Source: Sminthopsis crassicaudata (lineage: Eukaryota). Taken from it: a DNA stretch of 64,000 nucleotides. A program made the position numbers and the translations under genes. The stretch is taken from the NCBI RefSeq assembly GCF_048593235.1, contig NC_133618.1, positions 558,778,465 to 558,842,464 of the forward strand, in the 5' to 3' direction. Positions 11,187 through 64,000 of this stretch are shown one piece after another. Below the pieces are notes generated by a model. It did not search any database, was not told where the DNA came from, and was given only the letters and a program-made list of their open reading frames with translations. Position 1 is the first letter of the stretch. Every line of letters starts with the position of its first letter.

Positions 11187-12578
11187 TTTATTTACCAGAT
11201 ATACACATGGGTAATTTTACAGCATTGACGGTTGCCAAACTTTTTGTTCTTTCCCCTTCCCTCCCAGATGGCAGGTTGACCAATGAATGTTAAATATGTT
11301 AAAGTATAAATTAAATACAATATATGTATACATGTCCAAACAGTTGTTTTGCTATACAAAAAGAATCAGACTTTGAAATAGTGTACAATTAGCCTGTGAA
11401 GGAAATCCAAAATGCAGGTGGACAAAAATAGAGGGAGTGGGAATTCTATGTAGTGGTTCATAGTCATCTCCCCGAGTTCTTTCACTCGGTGTAGCTGGTT
11501 CAGTTCATTACTGCTCTATTGGAATTGATTTGGTTCATCTCATTGTTGAAGATGACCACATACATCAGAATTGATCATCATATAGCATTGTTGTTGAAGT
11601 ATATAATGATCTCCTGGTCCTGCTCATTTCACTCAGCATCAGTTCATGTAAGTCTCTCCAGGCCTTTCTGAAATCATCCTGTTGGTCATTTCTTACAGAA
11701 CAATAATATTCCATAACATTCATATACCACAGTTTATTCAGTCATTCTCCAGTTGATGGACATCCACTTATTTTCCAGTTTCTGGCCACCACAAAGAGGG
11801 CTGCCACAAATATTCTTCCACGTACAGGTCCCTTTCCCTTCTTTAAAATCTCTTTGGGATACAAACCCAGTAGAAACACTGCTGGGTCAAAGGGTATGCA
11901 CAGTTGGATAACTTTTTGAGCATAGTTCCGAATTGTTCTCCAGAATGGCTGGATGTATTCACAATTCCACCAACAATGTATCAGTGTCCCTGTTTTCCCA
12001 TATCCCCTCCAACATTGCATATTATCTTTCCTGGCCATTCTAGCCATTCTGACAGGTGTGTAGTGGTCTCAGAGTTGTCTTAATTTGCATTTCTCTGATT
12101 AATAATAACTTGGAGCATCTTTTCATATGGCTAGAAACAGTTTCAATTTCTTCATCTGAGAATTGTCTATTCATATCCTTTGACCATTTATCAATTGGAG
12201 AATGGCTTGATTTCTTATAAATTAGAGTCAATTCTCTATATAGTTTGGAAATGAGGTCTTTATCAGAATCTTTGACTGTAAAAATATTTTCCCAGTTTAT
12301 TTTTTCCCTTCTAATCTTATCTGCATTAGTTTTGTTTGTACAAAAACTTTTCAATTTGATATAATCAAAGTTTTCTATTTTGTGATCAATAATGATCTCT
12401 AGTTCTTCTTTGGACATAAATTCATTCCTCTTCCACAGGTCTGAGAGGTAAACTATCCTATGTTTCTCTAATTTATTTATAATCTCATTCTATCTCATTC
12501 TTTATGCCTAGGTCATGAACCCATTTTGACCTGATTTTGGTGTACGGTGTCAAGTGTGGGTCAATGCCTAGTTTCTGA
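11184..12578 (-). mobile_element. 5'-truncated L1 (ORF2 C-terminus plus 3'UTR)
   Basis: ORFs 12040-12417 and 11742-12047 give the L1 ORF2 C-terminus (CWRGxGKTGTLIHCWW, HSPIDKWSKDMNRQFS). Probable 12-bp TSD agatggctcttt (11105-11116) / agatggcttttt (12579-12590), followed by aa (TTTT/AA endonuclease site). Confidence 0.95.
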
Positions 12579-16179: not shown

Positions 16180-16641
16180 NNNNNNNNNNNNNNNNNNNNN
16201 NNNNNNNNNNNNNNNNNNNNNNNNNNNNNNNNNNNNNNNNNNNNNNNNNNNNNNNNNNNNNNNNNNNNNNNNNNNNNNNNNNNNNNNNNNNNNNNNNNNN
16301 NNNNNNNNNNNNNNNNNNNNNNNNNNNNNNNNNNNNNNNNNNNNNNNNNNNNNNNNNNNNNNNNNNNNNNNNNNNNNNNNNNNNNNNNNNNNNNNNNNNN
16401 NNNNNNNNNNNNNNNNNNNNNNNNNNNNNNNNNNNNNNNNNNNNNNNNNNNNNNNNNNNNNNNNNNNNNNNAAAAAGNNNNNNNNNNNNNNNNNNNNNNN
16501 NNNNNNNNNNNNNNNNNNNNNNNNNNNNNNNNNNNNNNNNNNNNNNNNNNNNNNNNNNNNNNNNNNNNNNNNNNNNNNNNNNNNNNNNNNNNNNNNNNNN
16601 NNNNNNNNNNNNNNNNNNNNNNNNNNNNNNNNNNNNNNNNN
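16180..16641. other. assembly gap (N run) with a 6-base island at 16472-16477
   Basis: Read directly from the sequence. Confidence 1.
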
Positions 16642-31069: not shown

Positions 31070-32090
31070 AGGGAAACCAATTTTATTTTATTTTCAATTC
31101 TAGATTCTCTCCTCCCTAAACATATCCCATATTTTAAAAACACAAGACATTCAAAACTCATTACAAATATGAGGTTATGTAAGACAAATTTCCACATTAG
31201 TCATATTCTGGCATGGGGAGGAGAGGAGAGAAAAAAAGAAAAAATAATATTCTATAATTTGAATTCATTAGTTCTATATCTGGAAATGGATAACCTTTTT
31301 CATTAATCTTTTGAAACTATAGTGTATCATTGTGTTGATTGGTAACTAAGTCTTTCACAACTGATTATCTTTACAAAATTATTACTCTGTAGATTTTTCA
31401 CTTGATTCTGTTCACTTTACTTTCCATCATTTCATATAAGTTTTCCCATGTTTCTCTAAAACTATCCTCTTCATCATTCTTACAAGACAAAAGTATTCAA
31501 TCACATTGACATATTTTGTTCAATAATTCCTTAATTGATGGGCATCCCTCAATTTCCAATTCTTGACACCACAAAAAGACCTATTAAAATATTTTTGTAC
31601 ATATAGATTCTTTCTTTGTTATTTGATCTCTTAGGAGATAGACCGGATATTTCTGGATCACAGTTTAGTAGATTTTGGGGGTAGTCCCAAATTGCTTTCC
31701 AGAATATTTAAACTAGTTCACAGAAACACCAACATTGTATTAATGTATTTATTTTCCCACATCTTCTCTAGCTTTTGTCATTTTTTATGTCATTTTAGCC
31801 CTTCTGTTGGTTATAAGATGGTACCTTTAAATTGTTTTCATTTGCATTTCTCTATTAGTGATTTAGAACATTTTTTCATATGATTATTGATAGCTTTGAT
31901 TTCTTCATCTGAAAACTTTTTATTCATATTCTTATCCACTTATCAATTGAGGAATTCCCCTTGTTCTTACATTTTTGTTTCAGTCTTTTGGAGAAATGAC
32001 ACCTTTATTAAGGAAACAGGCTGCAAAGATTTTTCCACATTTTACTGCTTTTCTTCTAATTTTAACTACATTAATTTTGTGTATATTCCT
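31070..32090 (-). mobile_element. old L1 (ORF2 end plus 3'UTR)
   Basis: aattgatgggcatccctcaatttccaattcttgacaccacaaaaag and ttgcatttctctattagtgatttagaacattttttcatatgattattg are reverse L1 ORF2 C-terminal motifs. Confidence 0.8.
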
Positions 32091-38039: not shown

Positions 38040-39052
38040 AACTTTTTTTTTTTCCCCAATTAAAAGCTTTTCATTTTTTCTCCCTCATTTTACCTTCCCC
38101 ATCACCAGGGGCAAAAGAAATTCAAAACCTTTATAACAAATGTGCATAACCAAACAAAATAAATTCCCAAATTGGCTATTTCAAAAAATACAAGATGTTT
38201 CAAAAGGTTCATTCTGCTTCTCGGGGCTATCTCTCTGTTAGGAGGTGAATTGCATGAATCATCACCTGTAGCCGGGAAGTGTGAGTGTTAATTATATAGA
38301 TCACAATTCTTAATTTTTTAAAAATAAAATTAAATCTTACCAATGTATAAATTATTTTCATGGTTTTGCTCACTTCAGTCTGCATCAATTAATAAAAGTC
38401 TTCCCAGGTTTCTCTGAAATTATCCTTTCTAGACTAACCTTTTCACTTTTTTCTTTTTTTTTTTTTAATTTTAATTTTCCCCAGTCATACATAAAAAACA
38501 ACTTTGTTGTACATTGTATATTCTTTTTGTAACTATTGCCTCATAAAGGATGTTGGGAGAGAAAAATCAGAACAAAAGGAAAAACCATAAGAGAAAAAAA
38601 AAAAAACAAAAAAAAAAAGAAAAAAAACGTGAACATAGTATGTGTCTATGTTTGTTCTCTATAGTCCTCTCTCTCTATATGCATATCATTTTTCATTCAA
38701 AGTTAATTGAGATTGTCTTGGATCACTACACTGCTGAGAAGAACCAAATCTGATATAGCTGATCATTATACAATCTTGCTATTATTGTATATGGTGTATT
38801 CCTAGTATTGCTTGCTTTGCTCAGCATCAGTTCATGAAAATCTTTCCAGGCCTTTCTAAAATCAACTTGTTGATATAATAATGAATAATTATGAATAATG
38901 AATAATAACACATAGAATAATAATATTCCATTATCTTAATATGCCACAGTTTAGTCAGCCAATCCCCAACTGATGGGCATCTACTCACTTTCCAATTCTT
39001 TGCCACCACAAAAAGAGCTGCTACAGTTTTGCACAGATAGGTCCTTTTCCTT
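38040..39052 (-). mobile_element. L1 3' fragments (probably two copies)
   Basis: ORF 38827-39009 gives VAKNWKVSRCPSVGDWLTKLWHIKIMEYY (L1 ORF2 end). L1 3'UTR motifs with poly-T at about 38041 and 38450. Confidence 0.75.
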
Positions 39053-40903
39053 CCATACTAATCTTTCTTAAGCACAGTTGCACCATGTTACTTCTTCAGT
39101 ACTCGAAAGATTTTAAGAACTTTGTGTTTCCCTCATAATGAACTTCAGATTCTTCTACCTTATTTTCAAGATCTTCCAATATTTGGTCACATTTTAATCC
39201 TCCAAGTTTATTTTGTACAATTTCCTAATATGTCTTTCCATTCTTCCTGACATGTTTCATGGACTTATTAATGTTCCTATTTTATGGAATGCTCTACCCT
39301 TTCTTTCATACCTATGTGTTAATCTGATTTGAATTCCAAGAAAGAGGACAGCTATACTTCTAGATCTAAAATTATTCTCCTCTTTCCTTTGATTTATAGA
39401 ATTCCTCACATCCTTCAAGATATAGCTGATATACCAACTTCTCCATGATGCCCTACAACAGCAAATGTTTTCCCTTCACTACTTTGTATTTGTTCTGTAT
39501 ATATTTATTTTATATATACTCTTGTATATATGTATATGTATATATATAATCTTTAAATATGCTAGAAGAGCCAGATATTGAATACTTAAATGATGAAGTA
39601 GTGAAAAGTACTAATATACTTTTGTATATTAACTACTTTTGTAAAGTAAAATAATTGGGCCTACTTTTCCCCCAATTTAATCAAATGACATTTACATACA
39701 TGAATTTTATAAAATATATTTATAATTTTCAAGAGTTTTAAAGTCATGTTACAATTTCATTTTTTGTTAGTCATTCAATTGTTTTTTGATCATGTCCAAC
39801 TCTCTTTGACCCCATTTGTGGTTATCTTTGATTGCATAGAGCTCTGGAAAATTACAGAGCCTTCAAAATGAGCTCTATAATCACTTAAAGGATTTTGACA
39901 TATCTCTCCATACAGTCCTTAGGCCTTACACATTGTAGGCAGATACTATGGCTGGAACCAGGATTGAACAAAAGAAGGAGAATGGCTGCATCTACAGCTT
40001 TTAGAACATCATGCAGTGTTACTAATGATAATGAATCTCCCTATGAAATAAGATAAAAACTCAATAAAAAGAAACAAAAATAAAAATTTTCAATTTTTTT
40101 TCTTTCAAAGCTATATTTCTGTGAGATATGGGATAAATACTTGGAACAATTCTTTTTAGGTGTTTTCCAGAAAACAATGAAGATACACATGATGACAGAT
40201 ATGAGTAAACCGCAACATATTGCCATAGAAAAATTGCATTGGAAGAGTGCCATAAAGGATGTCATCAGAGAGCTGTCTCACAAGAAAGGGAGATAGATCT
40301 GTTAGTAAAAGCAGATAGTCTGCAAGCTCCACTAGTATTTGTGCAATGCTAAAAAAAGCAAACTCCCCACAAGGTTTGATGACTGCTTCCTTTCACGAAC
40401 TTTCAGTTAGAGGTTAGTGAGAGTAAAGATTCAATATTTTTACCCATCTGATTCATGACCCCAAGAAGTACAGGTTGAGAAACCCTACTCTACATATTGT
40501 ATGGTCCAAATAGAACATATCACAGCGACTGCATCATGCACTTAGGCACTTCAAATGTTTGATGAATTAAATCTGGACATTATGATTCTTAGTACCCAAA
40601 TGTGTACTAAGATGTGGTTAACTGTCTTAGCAGTCACATTATTCATATTGAACTTGCATTGAACTAAAATTATTTTTTCCATTGATTTGAGCTAAGGTCA
40701 TCTTTCTAATATGCAGGGTTGACCACGTTCCATGATTGACATCCTCTCCCCCAACTTCAGTAGCTCCCTATTTCCTTTATGTGGTTTAAAATTCTTTACA
40801 ATATATGCCTTTCTGGCCTTTATTCTCCTCCATATATTCTAGGATCACCAGGATTGACATACTCGCTATTTCTTATACAAGACATTTATTTCCTGACTCC
40901 ATG

Positions 40904-54280: not shown

Positions 54281-54439
54281 NNNNNNNNNNNNNNNNNNNN
54301 NNNNNNNNNNNNNNNNNNNNNNNNNNNNNNNNNNNNNNNNNNNNNNNNNNNNNNNNNNNNNNNNNNNNNNNNNNNNNNNNNNNNNNNNNNNNNNNNNNNN
54401 NNNNNNNNNNNNNNNNNNNNNNNNNNNNNNNNNNNNNNT
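54281..54439. other. assembly gap (N run)
   Basis: Read directly from the sequence. Confidence 1.
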
Positions 54440-55369
54440 AATTTCTCAGGCAAAAAAGAGGTCAAGAAGCCCTACTACACCAATACACCAATAATAACTT
54501 TGGAACCCAAACTCAGATTTTCACACTACCAGTTACAGGTTTTAGTGGCACAAATGAGACCATAGCTTGTAGAATGAACATTGGATTTTTAGTCTCAATG
54601 AAATCCAGTGTTCATTCTACAACATCACAATGCCTCTTTCCTTCATGGTGGGATGTTTCAAGAAGATTATATATTTCATACCATAGAATGAGGCTCCATT
54701 AAGTTTTGGAAAGTAGGCTAGATTTTTTATAAGAAAGAATCACCATACTACAAGTATAAACATGTTATGATTATGTTTATATTGGTTATCTCCACACTAC
54801 TCATGTTTGGGTATACAACTTCAAAATAGCTACCACTAAAAATTAAAAAAGGACAACCTAAAATACATATCTTACTTTCTTTTAGATTTCTTTCCCAGGA
54901 AGCTCCTCAGTACTGGAACCTGAAAGACAACTCTTCAGTTAGTAAGTAATAACCAATTGATACATTAAGCTGGTTCCTTGTGAGTGTGAACTTAGTTTCT
55001 CACAGACTTAAAAATTTTTCCTTTCTGCATTGAAATAGTCAGCTTAATGTTATAGCAGGAAATTACACATTTGCAACAAAATTTTATTTTTGAATTATCT
55101 CAATAAGTGGCTTGACCCCAGAGTACCTTACAAAACATATTTGGATTTTTGGTACATTGTTTTAAATTGTAATAAATTTCACTAAAATTAGCTTTTGTGA
55201 TATTATAACTTAAAATACTCATTTACCACATATAAAAGTGATTTTTTCCCTCTTTAGATGATTTTTTTTTTCTCTTTTGCTACTGTACTTCTTATCCTAT
55301 CACCAGAGCTATAACCATTTTTTTGGACCCATCCAATTTCTACTCATTTGCAATAATATTGATGCATCC

Positions 55370-55799
55370 TGTTAGGATTACTAAGTGAGAACTGAGGTTG
55401 TCTGGATAGTTACAAGGTGAGAACTCAGGTTGACTTGATAGAGGGGGCAAGCTCATTGGCTGGGGTGGTTCTTCCCAGAAGCCCTTGCATTATCCCACGC
55501 CCATTCTCTGGGAGGATAAAAGAGACAGCACTGGGCGCAGAGAGCAGATCGGCCTGGAGAAGGATAAGAGCTGGAGGAGATTCAGAGCCAGGATTCAAGA
55601 GAAGACTCTGAATTGCATCAGGCTTGACGGGGCTCTCTGCAGGAAGGGAAGTCACTTCTTTGGACAAGAGTTAACAGCAACTGCCTGGAGACAACGGTTC
55701 GTTACAGGAAGAAGAATCTGTCTGAGAGATTTGAGTAGACACAGCAGATCTCTTCCCAGAGAGCGATCCGGCAGCTTCTGGAGACGACAGCTCGCTACA
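55370..55799 (+). repeat. 5' LTR (430 bp)
   Basis: Starts tgttagg and ends gctaca; homologous to 58387-58760. Reverse CCAAT (55455-55459), GC/KLF box ccacgccc (55495-55502), TATA-like gataaaa (55515-55521). Confidence 0.95.
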
Positions 55800-55801
55800 A
55801 T

Positions 55802-55820
55802 TGGCGTCCACACGTGGGGC
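55802..55820 (+). promoter_or_regulatory. primer-binding site 1, tRNA-Lys1,2(CUU)-like
   Basis: tggcgtccacacgtggggc versus canonical TGGCGCCCAACGTGGGGC: one substitution (G-U compatible) and a 1-nt insertion; 2 nt from the LTR end. Confidence 0.85.
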
Positions 55821-55871
55821 AAGGACTTTTGCTTATCCTGACAAGAGGAGCTAGACCAGACCTTCGCAATT

Positions 55872-55889
55872 TGGCGCCCGAACAGGGAC
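55872..55889 (+). promoter_or_regulatory. primer-binding site 2, perfect tRNA-Lys3(UUU)
   Basis: tggcgcccgaacagggac is an 18/18 match to the canonical Lys3 PBS (as in HIV-1); 72 nt downstream of the LTR end. Confidence 0.9.
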
Positions 55890-55954
55890 AGACACAGTCC
55901 TGATTCCAGTGGAAAAGCTTCCAATCTAGATCTCAGTCTCTCTGACCCAGAACC

Positions 55955-55960
55955 GTGAGT
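55955..55960 (+). promoter_or_regulatory. candidate major splice donor in the ERV leader
   Basis: cc|gtgagt between the PBS and the gag ATG, the usual position. Confidence 0.5.
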
Positions 55961-56057
55961 AACGAGGAAACTTTGTTAAAGATTAAGTGAGCGTGCTAAT
56001 AGATAAATAAGGAACTTAACTTGTTAAGGGCTAAACCAGGAATCTCTTATAGCTGAA

Positions 56058-57881
56058 ATGGGGCAGATGTTAGCTATATTCAATCCCTGGACCTCAGCCG
56101 ACTCAACCTCAGCCCCAGACGCAACCTCAGCTCCATTCAGGAGTGGTACTATAGAGAGTATAATCAACATAATTGAGGAGCAGAGTTTACTTGTAACCTG
56201 GGTACAGATTGCTAAACTCTTGGCTGCATTAAGACGCACATCCCCTTGGTTCTTAGAGGAAGAAAAGATAGATGTAGATAAATGGAAGCTAGTGGGATAT
56301 GAAATGAAAGAATTTCAAGCAAAAAATGGGCCTCGTTCAATTTCTGCAGAAGTATTTTATATCTACAACATAGTTCAATTAGCCTTAAACTATCAAGCAA
56401 GTTGTAGGAGAAGGAAAAGTTCTAAAAATGAACAGAGGAGGAAGTGTGAGGAAAAAAGGAAAGATCAAGATCTTTCCCTAGAGCAAGAGGATTTAAATGA
56501 GGAATTATGGTATGATTCTCTTGAAGAAGCTTCAACCCTGCCTAGAGAACAGATTATTGACAGGCCCACATCAACCCCACCTTCAGAGATGGAGGAAGAA
56601 AGAGGGGAAGAGGCAGAAACACAAACAGAATTGCCTGTGAAGCAGCCTAAGCCTATGACAAGATTAGAAAAAGCATTGGTTAAAGCTAAGAGAGAAGGAC
56701 AGGATATAAGTGATTTTATACATGCATATCCTGTGATTGAAGAGTTTGATTCTGTAGGTAAAAAAAGGAGAAGATATGCACCTTTAGATTTGAATAAAAT
56801 TAAGGATTTGAAAAAAGGTTGTACCCTTTATGGGGCTACATCAGCTTATGTCAAAATGTTACTAGATGGTTTGTCTTATGAAGTCCTAACCCCGAATGAT
56901 TGGAAATCCATAGCAAGGACATGTCTGGAACCTGGAGAAAATTTATTATGGCTTGCGGAATTTCATGAATTATGTAAAATTCAAGTCAGATGCAATTTGG
57001 AAATAGGAGTTAACACACAATTCACTTTTGAGCACTTAGCTGGTGAAGGTCAGTATGGAGAGAATTCGGAACAGATTCATTATACCATGACAATATATGA
57101 ACAAATTGCTAAGGCTGCAATAAAAGCTTGGGGTGTCCTTCCTGGACAGAAAGATCATGGAGAGGCTTTCACTAAAATACAGCAAGGTCCCAATGAACCT
57201 TTTGCAGATTTTGTGGGACGTTTGCAAACTGCTGTCAAAAGAACTATTGGAGAAAATTCAGCTACAGAAATAATGACCAGACATCTGGCTAAGGAAAATG
57301 CCAATGAGATTTGCAAAAGAATTATATGGGGATTAGACAAAGATGCTCCTTTAGAGGAGATCATAAGACGCTGTGCTACAGTGGGAACAAATGCTTTTTA
57401 CACCCGGACAATGATGAATGTGGAAAGACAGGGTCCCTCCTGGCAAGGGACTTCTAGAGAAACTCGGCGATGTTTTCAATGTGGAAAAATTGGGCATCTA
57501 AGAGCTCAGTGTAGGTATGGAGATACAGTGAGAAGACAGGGTGAAAGAAGACCTAAAACCCCATGTCCAAAATGCAACAGAGGACTCCATTGGGCATCAG
57601 AGTGTAGAATAATTCAGGGAAATGGGATGAGGGGCCCAGGTCCAGGGCCCCAGGCAAAAAAGACTTGGGGCATGATGGCAGCTGATGTTACACCCAAAGA
57701 GCCTTTAGAAGGTCAGGACTCTGATTTGATCAACCAGCAGAAACGCAATCACATGGCAGAAAGGGATTACCTGATAAGTGAGCCAAAAGGCAATCAGATT
57801 GCAAAAATGGATTACACTTGGGGAGAATACAGGCCTTTTAAACCAACAGGGCTGTGCCCAGTGCAAACAACTCCAATGTAA
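56058..57881 (+). CDS. gag: betaretrovirus-like Gag polyprotein (MA-CA-NC), intact, 607 aa
   Basis: MGQ start in a strong Kozak context; MA motif SPWFLEEEKIDVDKWKLVG; CA start PVIEEF; MHR IQQGPNEPFADFVGRL; two CCHC knuckles CFQCGKIGHLRAQC and CPKCNRGLHWASEC. Confidence 0.97.
   Translation: MGQMLAIFNPWTSADSTSAPDATSAPFRSGTIESIINIIEEQSLLVTWVQIAKLLAALRRTSPWFLEEEKIDVDKWKLVGYEMKEFQAKNGPRSISAEVFYIYNIVQLALNYQASCRRRKSSKNEQRRKCEEKRKDQDLSLEQEDLNEELWYDSLEEASTLPREQIIDRPTSTPPSEMEEERGEEAETQTELPVKQPKPMTRLEKALVKAKREGQDISDFIHAYPVIEEFDSVGKKRRRYAPLDLNKIKDLKKGCTLYGATSAYVKMLLDGLSYEVLTPNDWKSIARTCLEPGENLLWLAEFHELCKIQVRCNLEIGVNTQFTFEHLAGEGQYGENSEQIHYTMTIYEQIAKAAIKAWGVLPGQKDHGEAFTKIQQGPNEPFADFVGRLQTAVKRTIGENSATEIMTRHLAKENANEICKRIIWGLDKDAPLEEIIRRCATVGTNAFYTRTMMNVERQGPSWQGTSRETRRCFQCGKIGHLRAQCRYGDTVRRQGERRPKTPCPKCNRGLHWASECRIIQGNGMRGPGPGPQAKKTWGMMAADVTPKEPLEGQDSDLINQQKRNHMAERDYLISEPKGNQIAKMDYTWGEYRPFKPTGLCPVQTTPM
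57617..57671 (+). promoter_or_regulatory. gag-pro -1 ribosomal frameshift signal (slippery heptamer plus stem-loop/pseudoknot)
   Basis: G GGA AAT (57617-57623), 7-nt spacer, stem ggggccc/gggcccc (57631-57651), downstream tggggc (57666-57671). Same architecture as the SRV-1 gag-pro signal. Confidence 0.75.
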
Positions 57882-58078
57882 TTGTCAGATGATGAGAAGA
57901 GATTTAGAAAGTGGTAAATAGAAGGAAATTAGATAGGTTAACTGCCTGGGAGAGAGGGTTTGCTTGTATTTCTTCAGCAGGAGAAGGAATCAGATGGGTG
58001 CCAACGAGTCATATTCGCCTTGTCCATCAGAGAGAGACAGAAAAAGAGAAAGACCTCAAAATAAAGGAGAAGATCTAA
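57830..58078 (+). pseudogene. pol: decayed integrase C-terminal remnant
   Basis: RLTAWERGFACISSAGEGIRWVP matches the betaretroviral IN CTD. Relative to 63257-63518 it has an 8-bp deletion, TGG>TAG (57919-57921) and a +1 frameshift. Left boundary approximate. Confidence 0.85.
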
Positions 58079-58370
58079 GAAACATCTGACACTGAAAGAG
58101 CATGGATAATAAGAAGACTGTTAAAGAACTTTAAAAACCAGCAGGAATTATTGGACTTCCTCACACAAGATGAGACTAATGGACAATGGACTTATGGACA
58201 TTTATAAATTTTCAATTTATGATTATTTGATTATGATTATGTTATATACTTCTAGCATGTGTTATGTTACTATGTTACTATGTGCTTATGTAATTTATGT
58301 AATTATCTGTAATACTTCCCATATTGATGGATTTATGTTTCAAGGTCATGACTGTCCTATGTTCTAAATC

Positions 58371-58386
58371 AAAAGAAAGGGGGAGA
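58371..58386 (+). promoter_or_regulatory. polypurine tract
   Basis: aaaagaaagggggaga immediately before the 3' LTR. Confidence 0.95.
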
Positions 58387-58760
58387 TGTTAGGATTACTA
58401 AGTGAGAACTGAGGTTGTCTGGATAGTTACAAGGTGAGAACTCAGGTTGACTTGATAGAGGGGGCAAGCTCATTGGCTGGGGTGGTTCTTCCCAGAAGCC
58501 CTTGCATTATCCCACGCCCATTCTCTGGGAGAATAAAAGAAGAGGACTCTCAGAGAAAGAGGAAGACTCTGAATTGCATCAGGCTTGACGGGGCTCTCTG
58601 CAGGAAGGGAAGTCACTTCTTTGGACAAGAGTTAACAGCAACTGCCTGGAGACAACGGTTCGTTACAGGAAGAAGAATCTGTCTGAGAGATTTGAGTAGA
58701 CACAGCAGATCTCTTCCCAGAGAGCGATCCAGCAGCTTCTAGAGACGACAGCTCGCTACA
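58387..58760 (+). repeat. 3' LTR (374 bp)
   Basis: First 145 bp identical to the 5' LTR; last ~200 bp differ at 2 positions; central block replaced. Confidence 0.95.
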
Positions 58761-59089
58761 CATCCTATACATTCTGCCCTATAAAAGAAAATAAAAAATG
58801 GTTATGGTGCATTACATAATTATGTATGTAAACTGGGTAAGAGATGCTACATTGCAATATAATATTAATATAATATCCTTTGTTTTTCTTAATCCACTCT
58901 GGGCTAACCTTCCCAAAATTTACCCTGGCAGGTTGGGTACTCCCAAAGGCTTTAGTCACCTACTTTATATTCAAGTTATTCTGTTTATATTCAACTTATA
59001 CAAAACTATAACTGATGAGCCACCATCTCTGAGTTTACTTTAATAATAAGCCAATTGATAGAATTACCTTAAAAAGAATGACATTTGCT

Positions 59090-60050
59090 AAAATGTCACA
59101 GTAACATGACATACATAAAAGGTTATATCAAAAAGATATAAATGAGCAAAGAAGAAATTGTTTTTCAGACCTACTACTAGAGGAAGATTTCATGATCAAA
59201 CAATGGACATAGAGGATAAAAGAAGATAAAACAGATAATTTTGAGTACATAGAATTAAAAATCATTTGTTCAAATAAAATCTGTGTAGTTAAATTTAAAA
59301 GGAAAATGAATAACTGATAGTGAAATCTTTGTAATAAGTTGCTTTGATAAATGTTATAATATGGGAGCCACTTGCCAGTGATGGCTGGAGGTCTAACTCA
59401 GACCTGTAGAATGGATCTCTTCATGTGACAGGACGATGATGGTACAAGGAGATTGAGAAGCAGTTGCATTCTCTGATCTCCCAAATGAGAGGCAGTTGTG
59501 TTATTTGACCTCTCTGCTCTTTCCTTTTGCCCCCAATTTATTTCATTCTCAATTCACAAGGAACATCTGTGTTAGTAAAGGCTGGTTTGCAACTCCTTCA
59601 AGTGTTATGATTCACAATTTGTAGGCTCTAGGAGAATTGACCTGCCCCTTTACTTAGGCATGGTCCTTAACAGATAAAGTTCTCAGTCCTATAACATTTA
59701 AAGAATTGATTCAATGTATAAGAATGAGTCATTTTTACAAATAGTCAAATGATATGAGTACACAGTTTTCTAAGGAAAAAAAATCACATTAATATATGCA
59801 TTGAGAAAAAAACTGCTCTAAATCCCAAATAATTGTAAAAATGTAAAATAAAGCAACTCTGATCTTCCATCTTCCATCCATAAGAATGACAAAGTTTGCA
59901 ATGAAGGAAAATGAAAAATATTAGAAGGGTTACAGGAAAAAAATTCATTGTTGGACAGATAGGACTATATGAATTGATATAGACTTTCTGGAAAAAAAAG
60001 ATTTAGAACTTCATACCAAGAATGACTACAAGATATGCATTATTGAATGG
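59090..60050 (+). mobile_element. old L1 ORF2 fragment, interrupted by a solo LTR
   Basis: gataattttgagtacatagaattaaaaatcatttgttcaaataaaa...tttgataaa[LTR]gttctcagtcc...ataagaatgagtcattt...aaagcaactctga are L1 ORF2 motifs. Confidence 0.75.
59352..59672 (-). mobile_element. solo LTR (321 bp), ERV2-like
   Basis: tgtta...taaca termini with a perfect 6-bp TSD gataaa (59346-59351 and 59673-59678); the L1 continues on both sides. Strand inferred from the TGTTAAGG start and ATAAA position, less certain. Confidence 0.88.
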
Positions 60051-62549: not shown

Positions 62550-62948
62550 TGTAAAGTTCTTGAATTGAAAGGGTCCAGTCATCTGCTCAATTATAATCCT
62601 TCTCTGGGAGGAGATCTGTAAAATCTTTTCCTCTGTGCACAGGTTTCTTGGGAGCTCTGAATCTCCTTCAGCTTTTGTCCTTCCCCAAATCAGACTGGTC
62701 TCCTTTCAGCCTGCCTGGCATCACAACTCTATCCCAGAGTAGATTCTCTCAGACCCAATGCTGCTCTTCTTTTATCCTCCCAGAGAATAGGCATGTGAGA
62801 ACTCAATGGGGCGTGGGGAAATACTTCCACCAATTAACTTGCTCCTCTTAGAATTCCTAAGGTGTAAACTCCCTTTAAAGGCCCGAACCAAAGGTCTGAG
62901 CCAGAGAACTATCAAGTCAACCTAACTTCTCACCTTGTAATCCTAACA
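62550..62948 (-). repeat. 3' LTR (399 bp) of a second, related ERV
   Basis: Reverse complement starts tgttaggattac, shares ctctgggaggataaaaga and ggagattcagagc with the first ERV's LTR, ends ttaca; PPT adjacent at 62949-62964. Confidence 0.9.
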
Positions 62949-63518
62949 TCTCCCCCTTTCTTTTGATTTAGAACATAGGGTGGTCATGACCTTGAAACAT
63001 AAATCCATCAATATGAGAGGTATTACACATAATTACATAAATTACATAAGCACATAGTAATATAGTAACATAACACATACTAGAAGTATGTAACAAATAA
63101 CATGATCAAATAATCATAAATTGAAAATTTATAAATGTCCATAAGTCCATTGTCCATTAGTCTCATCTTGTGTTAGGAAATCCAATGATTCCTGCTGGTT
63201 TTAAAGTTCTTTAACAGTCTTCTTATTAACCATGCTCTTTCAGTATCAGATGTTTCTTAGATCTCCTTTGTTTTGATGTTTTTCTCTTTTTCTGTCTCTC
63301 TCTGATGGACAAGGCAAATACGGTTCGTTGACGCCCATCTGACTCCTTCTCCATCTGAAGAAATACAAGCAAACCCTCTCCCCCAAGCAGTTAACCTATC
63401 TGGTCCCTTCCATTCACCTCTTTCTGCGTCTCTCCACATCACCTGGCGATTATCTAAGGACAATGGAGCTGCTCGCACTGGACACTGCCCTTCTGGTGAG
63501 TTATAAAACCTGTCTGCC
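62949..63518 (-). mobile_element. pol: env-less ERV 3' internal region (IN C-terminus, 3'UTR, PPT)
   Basis: 63257-~63518 reads ADRFYNSPEGQCPV...MWRDAERGEWKGPDRLTAWGRGFACISSDGEGVRW...*, an open IN CTD. About 290 nt of UTR then the PPT, so no room for env. Confidence 0.9.
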
Positions 63519-64000
63519 CAATTCTCAGATAATGAAATTGAAACTATATCCACTCATATGATAGAGTGTTCCAAATCACTACTGATCAGAGAAATGCAAA
63601 TTAAGACAACTCTGAGATATCACTACACACCTGTCAGATTGGCTAAGATGACAGGAACAAATAATGATGAATGTTGGAGGGGATGTGGGAAAATTGGGAC
63701 ACTAATACATTGTTGGTGGAGTTGTGAAAGAATCCGGCCATTTTGGAGAGCAATATGTAACTATGCCCAAAAAGTTATCAAACTGTGCATACCCTTTGAT
63801 CCAGCAGTGCTACTACTGGGCTTATATCCCAAAGAAATACTAAAGAGGGAAAGGGACCTGTGTGTGCCAAAATATTTGTCGCAGCTCTTTTTGTAGTGGC
63901 TAGAAACTGGAAGTTGAATGGATGTCCATCAAATGGAGAATGGTTGGGTAAATTATGGTATATGAAGGCTATGGAATATTATTGCTCTGTAAGAAATGAC
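63519..64000 (+). mobile_element. 5'-truncated L1 (ORF2 C-terminus) inserted into the second ERV; runs off the window
   Basis: QFSDNEIETISTHMIECSKSLLIREMQIKTTLRYHYTPVRLAKM...CWRGCGKIGTLIHCWW. The junction is preceded by an endonuclease-type site ttat/aaaa (63501-63508). Confidence 0.92.

What the first reader, a model, noticed from the sequence alone, without database searches (positions are those of the whole stretch)
55370..58760. Young gag-only betaretrovirus-like element: intact Gag but a long-decayed integrase remnant
Seen: a complete TSD-flanked provirus of only 3.4 kb with one intact 607-aa Gag, no protease, RT or env, and LTRs differing at only 2-3 point positions outside one block. 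Its short integrase remnant carries an 8-bp deletion, a nonsense change and a frameshift relative to the open copy at 63257-63518. Inference: that much pol decay is hard to fit into the short time implied by the LTR identity while 1.8 kb of gag took no hit. The element probably belongs to a lineage that has replicated as a non-autonomous, Gag-retaining retrotransposon. It would supply its own capsid (cis packaging preference) and borrow Pro/Pol from a helper. Alternatively, or in addition, its Gag could act as a dominant-negative or restriction factor or a co-opted capsid, by analogy with Fv1 and the transdominant enJS56A1 Gag. I am not aware of this configuration being described in marsupials but cannot check.
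Basis: partly seen in the sequence, partly recalled or inferred. Interest (0 to 1): 0.78.

Follow-up and report, generated by a model that had tools for sequence, protein, structure and literature searches.

The report
Mobile Gag-only retroviral subfamily in dunnart
This is one unfixed copy of a many-copy dunnart retroviral element that has lost its enzymes but kept a whole capsid gene, and it likely still spreads by borrowing those enzymes from intact relatives, a strategy known from mice and plants but not found described for marsupials in my searches.

Summary
In detail: a 3,391-bp provirus with a 5-bp TSD, one 607-codon gag ORF and no pro, RT or env. It is a ~3-kb internal deletion derivative of the env-less dasyurid ERV family MEBrv3; gag runs in frame into a short integrase remnant. 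It is a lineage, not a one-off. Six RefSeq Sminthopsis crassicaudata Gag proteins on four chromosome-scale contigs carry the same integrase-derived tail. One other individual has the empty site (a second probably), so this insertion is unfixed and recent. The integrase decay is inherited and confined to 100 bp after the junction; the LTR block difference is family variation, not a clock. Trans-mobilisation by intact MEBrv3 is inferred. Selection on Gag is suggestive only: three stops in the overlapping pro frame against none in gag (p=0.125), shared variants avoid conserved sites (p=0.007), variant-table dN/dS about 0.5-0.7 (not significant). Host co-option of this locus is unlikely. It works like mouse IAP 1Δ1 and plant TR-GAG/RLG_Quinta, and my searches found no marsupial description. 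New variant of a known kind.

The parts
55365..55369 (+). 5' target-site duplication CATCC (a 6-bp reading would need the LTR to lack its first base)
   Evidence: single copy at the empty site
55370..55799 (+). 5' LTR, TG...CA, 430 nt, long block variant 55524-55600
55802..55820 (+). PBS 1, imperfect; resembles the PBS of the published MEBrv1/MEBrv3 records (tRNA-Lys1,2 label recalled). Inferred to be the site used, because the LTR ends just before it
55872..55889 (+). PBS 2, perfect 18-nt tRNA-Lys3 site
   Evidence: identical to the Lys3-TTT PBS quoted in 10.1101/2025.05.12.650695
55954..55960 (+). Predicted major splice donor; a contig of the RNA-like run leaves the element exactly here
56058..57881 (+). 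gag ORF, 607 aa: matrix about 56160-56387, capsid about 56775-57368 with intact major homology region, zinc knuckles 57471-57512 and 57564-57605, C-terminal tail partly integrase-derived
57617..57829 (+). gag/pro overlap from the predicted -1 slippery site; pro frame broken by stops at 57683, 57722, 57779, gag frame open
   Evidence: the pro frame is open here in the published parent (by eye)
57829..57830 (+). Deletion junction, start of pro joined to the end of integrase; about 3.0 kb of pro-RT-RNaseH-integrase core missing
57830..57930 (+). Lineage-specific decayed integrase segment: 25% diverged from the neighbour, 3-bp and 8-bp deletions, nonsense codon, 1-bp insertion; the Gag stop lies at the 8-bp deletion
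57931..58078 (+). Helper-like integrase C-terminal end, frame open, about 10% from the neighbour
   Evidence: (loose ends before 57931)
58079..58386 (+). Short 3' untranslated region without env, ending in the polypurine tract
58387..58760 (+). 3' LTR, 374 nt, short block variant 58541-58561
58761..58765 (+). 3' target-site duplication CATCC
62550..63518 (-). Separate, helper-type relative: integrase C-terminus, 3' UTR, PPT and a different 3' LTR (end at 62550 inferred); abuts an L1 fragment at 63519

Best explanation
The element is one unfixed copy of a multi-copy, Gag-only deletion subfamily of the env-less dasyurid retrovirus family MEBrv3, and it likely spreads by making its own Gag while borrowing protease, reverse transcriptase and integrase from intact family members. 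Shown: one old ~3-kb deletion joined the gag end in frame to the integrase end; the lesions beside the junction are shared by other copies; the element inserts with a TSD at new sites; two matrix types occur on the same junction. Inferred: its RNA is co-packaged with helper RNA and Gag-Pro-Pol in intracellular particles; template switching refreshes the 3' end, the LTRs and the matrix region but not the 100 bp beside the junction; and the Gag frame is likely kept open because it favours packaging of its own RNA or adds capsid mass.
For: Junction tail in 6 of 12 dunnart proteins with this capsid type; the other 6 end or diverge before the junction, and none shows the parent's Gag end. The six lie on four contigs of 479-757 Mb. 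Empty site: run X3 contig 25 (1,602 nt, depth 46.8) reads 54900-55364 straight into 58761-59300. In the lineage-specific segment 72-91 different contigs per DNA run (X1, X3) carry a variant at 57857 or 57885. P0002, 89% identical, shares the junction, and its reading frame implies the same 8-bp deletion and nonsense codon, so the lineage spans old and new copies. Parent family and intact env-less helpers in the dunnart are published (PMC11334065). Decay stops sharply at 57931, where 43 and 58 contigs of neighbour-like sequence join. Matrix 33% identical between the window Gag and P0027, capsid 97%. For a working Gag: 3 pro-frame stops vs 0 gag-frame stops in 71 codons; 12 shared amino-acid variants lie at less conserved sites than the 296 sites scored (p=0.007); zinc knuckles and major homology region intact; run X15 (RNA by guess) covers gag and the junction segment but not the flanks, with a contig leaving at the splice donor.
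Against: No DNA of other copies could be fetched, so no proper dN/dS. The 27 gag variants among the 40 listed rows (315 not shown) split 9 synonymous and 18 non-synonymous, dN/dS about 0.53-0.73, p=0.09-0.29, and mix subfamilies. 3 vs 0 stops is p=0.125, and a 71-codon frame stays open by chance 19-62% of the time. Shared vs singleton variants differ only at p=0.07, and singletons also avoid conserved sites (p=0.046). RefSeq proteins are preselected for open frames; 6 of 12 are truncated or diverge early. The helper was not seen directly: the search for longer Gag-Pro-Pol forms found none. X15 is RNA only by guess and its gag contigs differ from this copy.
Confidence: 0.6

Rival explanations
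1. Same mobile non-autonomous lineage, but Gag is a passenger: the frame is open because the bursts came from few master copies and gag is refreshed by recombination with helpers, as in cattle D-type or mouse ETn elements that need no protein of their own.
For: Variant-table dN/dS not significantly below 1; recent recombination is evident (P0003 has the other matrix on a capsid identical to P0001); a one-step join of live gag to an already decayed integrase copy would also explain the 100-bp decayed patch.
Against: Three pro-frame stops show that the last 150 nt or more of gag before the junction did not come recently from a competent helper. No dunnart protein with this capsid type shows a helper-type end (0 of 12). 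A stop-free 607-codon frame has probability 0.019 at 5% and 0.001 at 10% neutral divergence, although the right divergence is unknown.
Confidence: 0.3
2. The Gag is, or is becoming, a host-beneficial dominant-negative or restriction factor (Fv1- or enJS56A1-like; both recalled), and that is why it is intact.
For: Complete Gag without protease and with an unusual tail; probable transcription of some copy, including a spliced contig.
Against: This locus is absent in at least one other individual and is one of many near-identical copies; the family behaves as an expanding parasite.
Confidence: 0.06
3. A single recent deletion in one provirus, or an assembly collapse of a full-length provirus.
For: The window holds N gaps; the two LTRs are different family variants, so some internal mosaic assembly is possible.
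Against: The same junction is in six independently annotated proteins; a contig of run X10 spans 57683-57928; TSD and empty site match exactly.
Confidence: 0.02
4. Copies arose by segmental duplication or L1-mediated retroposition rather than retroviral integration.
For: L1 pieces lie nearby.
Against: Two complete LTRs with TG...CA ends, a 5-bp TSD, no poly-A tail, and a clean empty site.
Confidence: 0.02

Closest known systems
MEBrv3, marsupial endogenous betaretrovirus 3 (PMC11334065; text parts 1-4 of 7, passages, and supplement parts 1, 3, 4, 5 of 12 read)
   Same: Gag, pro start and integrase end are clearly homologous (compared by eye); env-less; abundant in dasyurids; intact copies reported in the fat-tailed dunnart.
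   Different: Published form is 7.3 kb with gag, pro and pol. This one lacks ~3 kb, has another capsid subtype (about 60% to that group), other LTRs and a short 3' UTR. The paper's main text has no 'non-autonomous', 'nonautonomous', 'in trans', 'truncated' or 'polymorphic'.
Mouse IAP 1Δ1 (PMC6466679, PMC7411935; passages read)
   Same: Env-less class II ERV deletion subtype, non-autonomous, in-frame gag-pol fusion, source of most new insertions; its fusion protein acts in cis.
   Different: 1Δ1 loses part of gag and needs Gag and Pol in trans; here Gag is complete and only about 17 residues come from integrase. A cis effect is untested here.
Plant TR-GAG (PMC4350172, abstract and outline) and wheat RLG_Quinta (PMC11302176, passages)
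   Same: Under 4 kb with a single gag ORF (TR-GAG); gag kept, RT and integrase lost, mobilised by an autonomous partner, recombining gag variants (Quinta).
   Different: Plant Copia/Gypsy elements; this is a vertebrate betaretrovirus-like ERV.
Cattle ERVK[2-1-LTR] D type, mouse ETn/MusD, koala recKoRV (PMC10924933, passages)
   Same: Defective morph trans-complemented by a competent morph, co-packaging, recombination, fixed variants near the boundary.
   Different: D-type elements have no intact ORF, and these pairs swap in a foreign central segment; here the centre is simply deleted and gag is whole.
Fv1, enJS56A1 Gag (recalled, not read)
   Same: ERV-derived Gag without its own working replication machinery.
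   Different: Those are particular host loci with restriction activity; this is an unfixed member of a large family.

Membership tests
MEBrv3 | Gag, pro and integrase sequence related to the published representative | tested here: met
   by eye; dasyurid proteins are the only close hits
MEBrv3 | No env ORF | tested here: met
MEBrv3 | Intact gag-pro-pol, about 7.3 kb | tested here: not met
   3.39 kb, pro broken, RT absent: a derivative, not a canonical member
MEBrv3 | RT phylogeny | not testable with these tools
   the element has no RT
MEBrv3 | LTR like the quoll representative | tested here: not met
   no likeness by eye; sister subfamily
Betaretrovirus-like class II ERV | Betaretroviral matrix, capsid, two CCHC knuckles, gag-pro -1 overlap, Lys PBS | tested here: met
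Betaretrovirus-like class II ERV | 6-bp TSD (recalled as typical; 6 bp in the published MEBrv3 record by eye) | tested here: inconclusive
   5 bp with an intact TG end
Non-autonomous trans-mobilised ERV subfamily | Same internal deletion at several loci | tested here: met
Non-autonomous trans-mobilised ERV subfamily | Integrase-type insertion with TSD and an empty allele | tested here: met
   this locus only; TSDs of other copies not seen
Non-autonomous trans-mobilised ERV subfamily | Autonomous partner with matching LTR ends, PBS and PPT | tested here: inconclusive
   neighbour shares LTR start, PPT and 3' UTR but is a fragment; intact helpers reported in PMC11334065, not seen here
IAP 1Δ1-like | In-frame gag-pol fusion made by the deletion | tested here: met
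IAP 1Δ1-like | Fusion protein promotes retrotransposition in cis | not testable with these tools
   needs a cell assay
TR-GAG | Under 4 kb, LTRs, single gag ORF, no enzymes | tested here: met
TR-GAG | Plant Copia/Gypsy-type Gag | tested here: not met
   betaretroviral Gag: analogue, not member
Gag under purifying selection | dN/dS below 1 among junction-bearing copies | tested here: inconclusive
Co-opted host gag gene | Fixed, orthologous single locus | tested here: not met
   empty site and many copies

The most novel reading that the evidence does not exclude
A mammalian TR-GAG: in the dunnart this whole capsid lineage survives only as Gag-only elements. It has no autonomous form of its own, evolves under selection on Gag (stem 0.17 changes per site, two exchangeable matrix domains), and hijacks Pro-Pol from a helper whose capsid is only about 60% identical, perhaps out-numbering it while still inserting today.
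Probability: 0.3. Interest if true: 0.72.

Novelty: new variant of a known kind. Interest (0 to 1): 0.52.

Why it matters
It points to an apparently still-mobile ERV subfamily in a laboratory marsupial, in a family proposed to destabilise dasyurid genomes. It offers a natural test of whether a non-autonomous vertebrate ERV gains from keeping a complete Gag, which is described for plant elements and only partly for mouse IAP 1Δ1. Polymorphic insertions are also likely mutagens and population markers. The concept itself is not new.

Tried and rejected
No whole genome is held for this window, so no genome-wide junction count, TSD list or codon-level dN/dS. Scans for related DNA found nothing: viral contigs 0 of 48 stretches, metagenomes 0 of 592 and 0 of 151. 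Search for longer Gag-Pro-Pol proteins: 0 of 1,254 candidates, weak evidence. Longer integrase relatives: 1 of 86. Rfam: 0 matches. No structure model was obtained, so the fold of the tail is untested. No run is on record as RNA; runs of organisms B, C and D held next to none of the words, which is no proof of absence. Summed contig depth (about 1e6 against about 50 on the flanks) is not a copy number and was not used as one. LTR dating was rejected because both block variants are common in the family. G-to-A hypermutation as the cause of the decayed patch was considered and not supported: 9 G>A but also 6 C>T among 25 changes; the three LTR differences are all G/A, too few to judge. No PTAP/PSAP, PPxY or YPxL late motif. 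Earlier scan notes: none in 3 look-ups. Literature searches listed no paper on a Gag-only marsupial ERV; the library lacks most subscription papers, and Repbase/Dfam entries could not be checked. Supplement parts 2 and 6-12 and text parts 5-7 of PMC11334065 were not read in full.
Full report
Observation. The element runs from 55370 to 58760 between two copies of CATCC. The LTRs are 430 and 374 nt and differ at 3 of 353 aligned positions plus one block. A single long ORF, 56058-57881, encodes a 607-aa Gag with matrix, both capsid domains and two zinc knuckles; the best matches among solved structures are Gag and capsid p27 chains, including HERV-K capsid. There is no upstream ATG in the leader, and the major homology region and both CCHC motifs are intact.

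Host and parent family. The closest proteins are named Sminthopsis crassicaudata (97-98% identical), then Tasmanian devil, so the host is inferred to be the fat-tailed dunnart. PMC11334065 describes MEBrv3, an env-less betaretrovirus-like family that makes up about two thirds of dasyurid ERVs, with intact 7.3-kb copies in the dunnart. Its supplementary record, compared by eye, matches the end of this Gag, the start of pro and the end of integrase. The junction lies at 57829/57830, where the pro start joins the last part of integrase; about 3.0 kb is missing. The parent's Gag ends a few codons before the junction. This Gag reads on across it in the integrase frame and stops at the 8-bp deletion. 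The LTRs, capsid subtype and 3' UTR differ from the quoll representative, so this is a sister subfamily.

It is a lineage. Of 12 dunnart proteins with this capsid type (clusters 1-3), six reach the junction and all six carry the integrase-derived tail: P0001, P0019, P0025, P0021, P0027 and P0002. They lie on four contigs of 479-757 Mb. The other six end or diverge earlier; none shows the parent's Gag end. P0002 is 89% identical, holds 26 of the 50 singleton changes, and its tail frame implies the same 8-bp deletion and nonsense codon, so it looks like an older copy of the same lineage (inference). Public runs agree: 20 of 24 listed runs, all organism A, hold 71-96% of the element's words. In DNA runs X1 and X3, 72-91 different contigs carry a variant at 57857 or 57885, inside the lineage-specific segment. 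Copy number cannot be read from these depths; tens to hundreds is my inference.

This insertion is unfixed. In run X3 one 1,602-nt contig at single-copy depth (46.8) reads 54900-55364 and continues directly at 58761, leaving one CATCC. In X1 a flank contig stops at 55364 with 50 letters left over and the next starts at 58781, which fits the same empty allele (inferred). Each run also differs from the window at a flanking base, so neither appears to be the window's own individual. The insertion is therefore recent and made by integrase, although the element encodes none.

Where the decay is. Against the neighbour, 57830-57930 differs at 25 of 100 aligned positions, the remaining 3' part at 31 of 452 (p=1e-6). 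From 57931 the integrase frame is open, and 43 (X1) and 58 (X3) contigs with neighbour-like sequence join exactly there. I infer an old deletion whose distal parts are refreshed by template switching with helper RNA, like the boundary effect reported for cattle C/D elements (PMC10924933, passages). Recombination shows elsewhere too. The window Gag and P0027 share the junction and 97% of capsid but only 33% of matrix; P0027's matrix groups with devil P0008, the window's with the other subtype. Both LTR block variants are common in the runs, so this copy's LTR pair is probably recombinant or partly mosaic, and is not a clock.

Is Gag working? For: the pro frame in the 71-codon overlap has three stops and the gag frame none, and that stretch cannot have come recently from a competent helper. 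Twelve amino-acid variants shared between copies fall on less conserved sites than the 296 sites scored (p=0.007). A stop-free gag has probability 0.019 at 5% and 0.001 at 10% neutral divergence. Run X15, RNA by guess, covers gag and the junction segment but not the flanks, and one contig leaves at the predicted splice donor at 55954. Against: 3 vs 0 is p=0.125; shared vs singleton variants p=0.07, and singletons also avoid conserved sites; 27 gag variants from 40 listed rows gave 9 synonymous and 18 non-synonymous, dN/dS 0.53-0.73, not significant, with no stops, from mixed subfamilies; annotated proteins are preselected for open frames. The capsid clade has a stem of 0.17 changes per site from its nearest relatives, one of which is pro-linked, but I cannot tell whether that accrued before or after the deletion.

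Mechanism. Shown: shared deletion, in-frame fusion, many copies, TSD, empty allele, two matrix types. Inferred: LTR-driven germline transcription, co-packaging with helper Gag-Pro-Pol in intracellular particles, priming at PBS 1, and integration by helper integrase. I put about 0.9 on a trans-mobilised lineage, split 0.6 for a selected Gag and 0.3 for a passenger Gag. Co-option of this locus is unlikely, about 0.06.

Comparison. It works like mouse IAP 1Δ1, a non-autonomous gag-pol fusion subtype whose protein acts in cis (PMC6466679 and PMC7411935, passages), but keeps all of Gag. Its layout matches plant TR-GAG (PMC4350172, abstract) and wheat RLG_Quinta (PMC11302176, passages), of which it is not a member. 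MaLR elements are non-autonomous mammalian LTR elements (PMC5538554, passages); that they carry a gag-derived ORF is recalled. Seven literature searches listed no marsupial description, and the MEBrv3 paper's main text does not mention non-autonomous forms. Repeat libraries and subscription papers were not searchable.

Verdict. Real, mobile, multi-copy and apparently undescribed in dasyurids, but of a known kind. New variant of a known kind; interest 0.52.

Noticed in passing
window 55802-55889: Two primer-binding sites in tandem, 70 nt apart: an imperfect one next to the LTR and a perfect tRNA-Lys3 site. Contigs skipping the first exist at low depth (joint 55800 to 55871, depth 236 and 183). 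Possibly a captured second leader or a primer switch in progress.
   Followed up: partly
window 62550-63518 (-) and 63519-64000 (+): Helper-type 3' fragment abutting an L1 piece; its integrase homology begins only about 7 nt upstream of the point where the Gag-only element's remnant begins. Coincidence or shared breakpoint unknown; the rest may lie beyond the window.
   Followed up: partly
window 55954: A contig of RNA-like run X15 leaves at the predicted splice donor into 255 nt of other sequence: probably a chimeric ERV-host transcript from another copy.
   Followed up: partly
window 55515 and 58532: One of the three LTR differences gives a canonical AATAAA only in the 3' LTR (GATAAA in the 5' LTR); no other such hexamer was found in either LTR.
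   Followed up: no
window 56742-56750: Five listed variant positions within 9 nt; the window's two residues here are private among 13 sequences, suggesting a small recombination or conversion patch.
   Followed up: no
P0003, P0026, P0027: A second matrix type joined to the same capsid; P0003's capsid is identical to P0001's, pointing to recent matrix exchange.
   Followed up: partly
window 11685-12165, 31659-31915, 38919-39053: Further L1 ORF2-end fragments, 68-84% like the one at 63519.
   Followed up: no
window 16180-16641 and 54281-54438: N gaps; the second lies about 930 nt upstream of the element.
   Followed up: no
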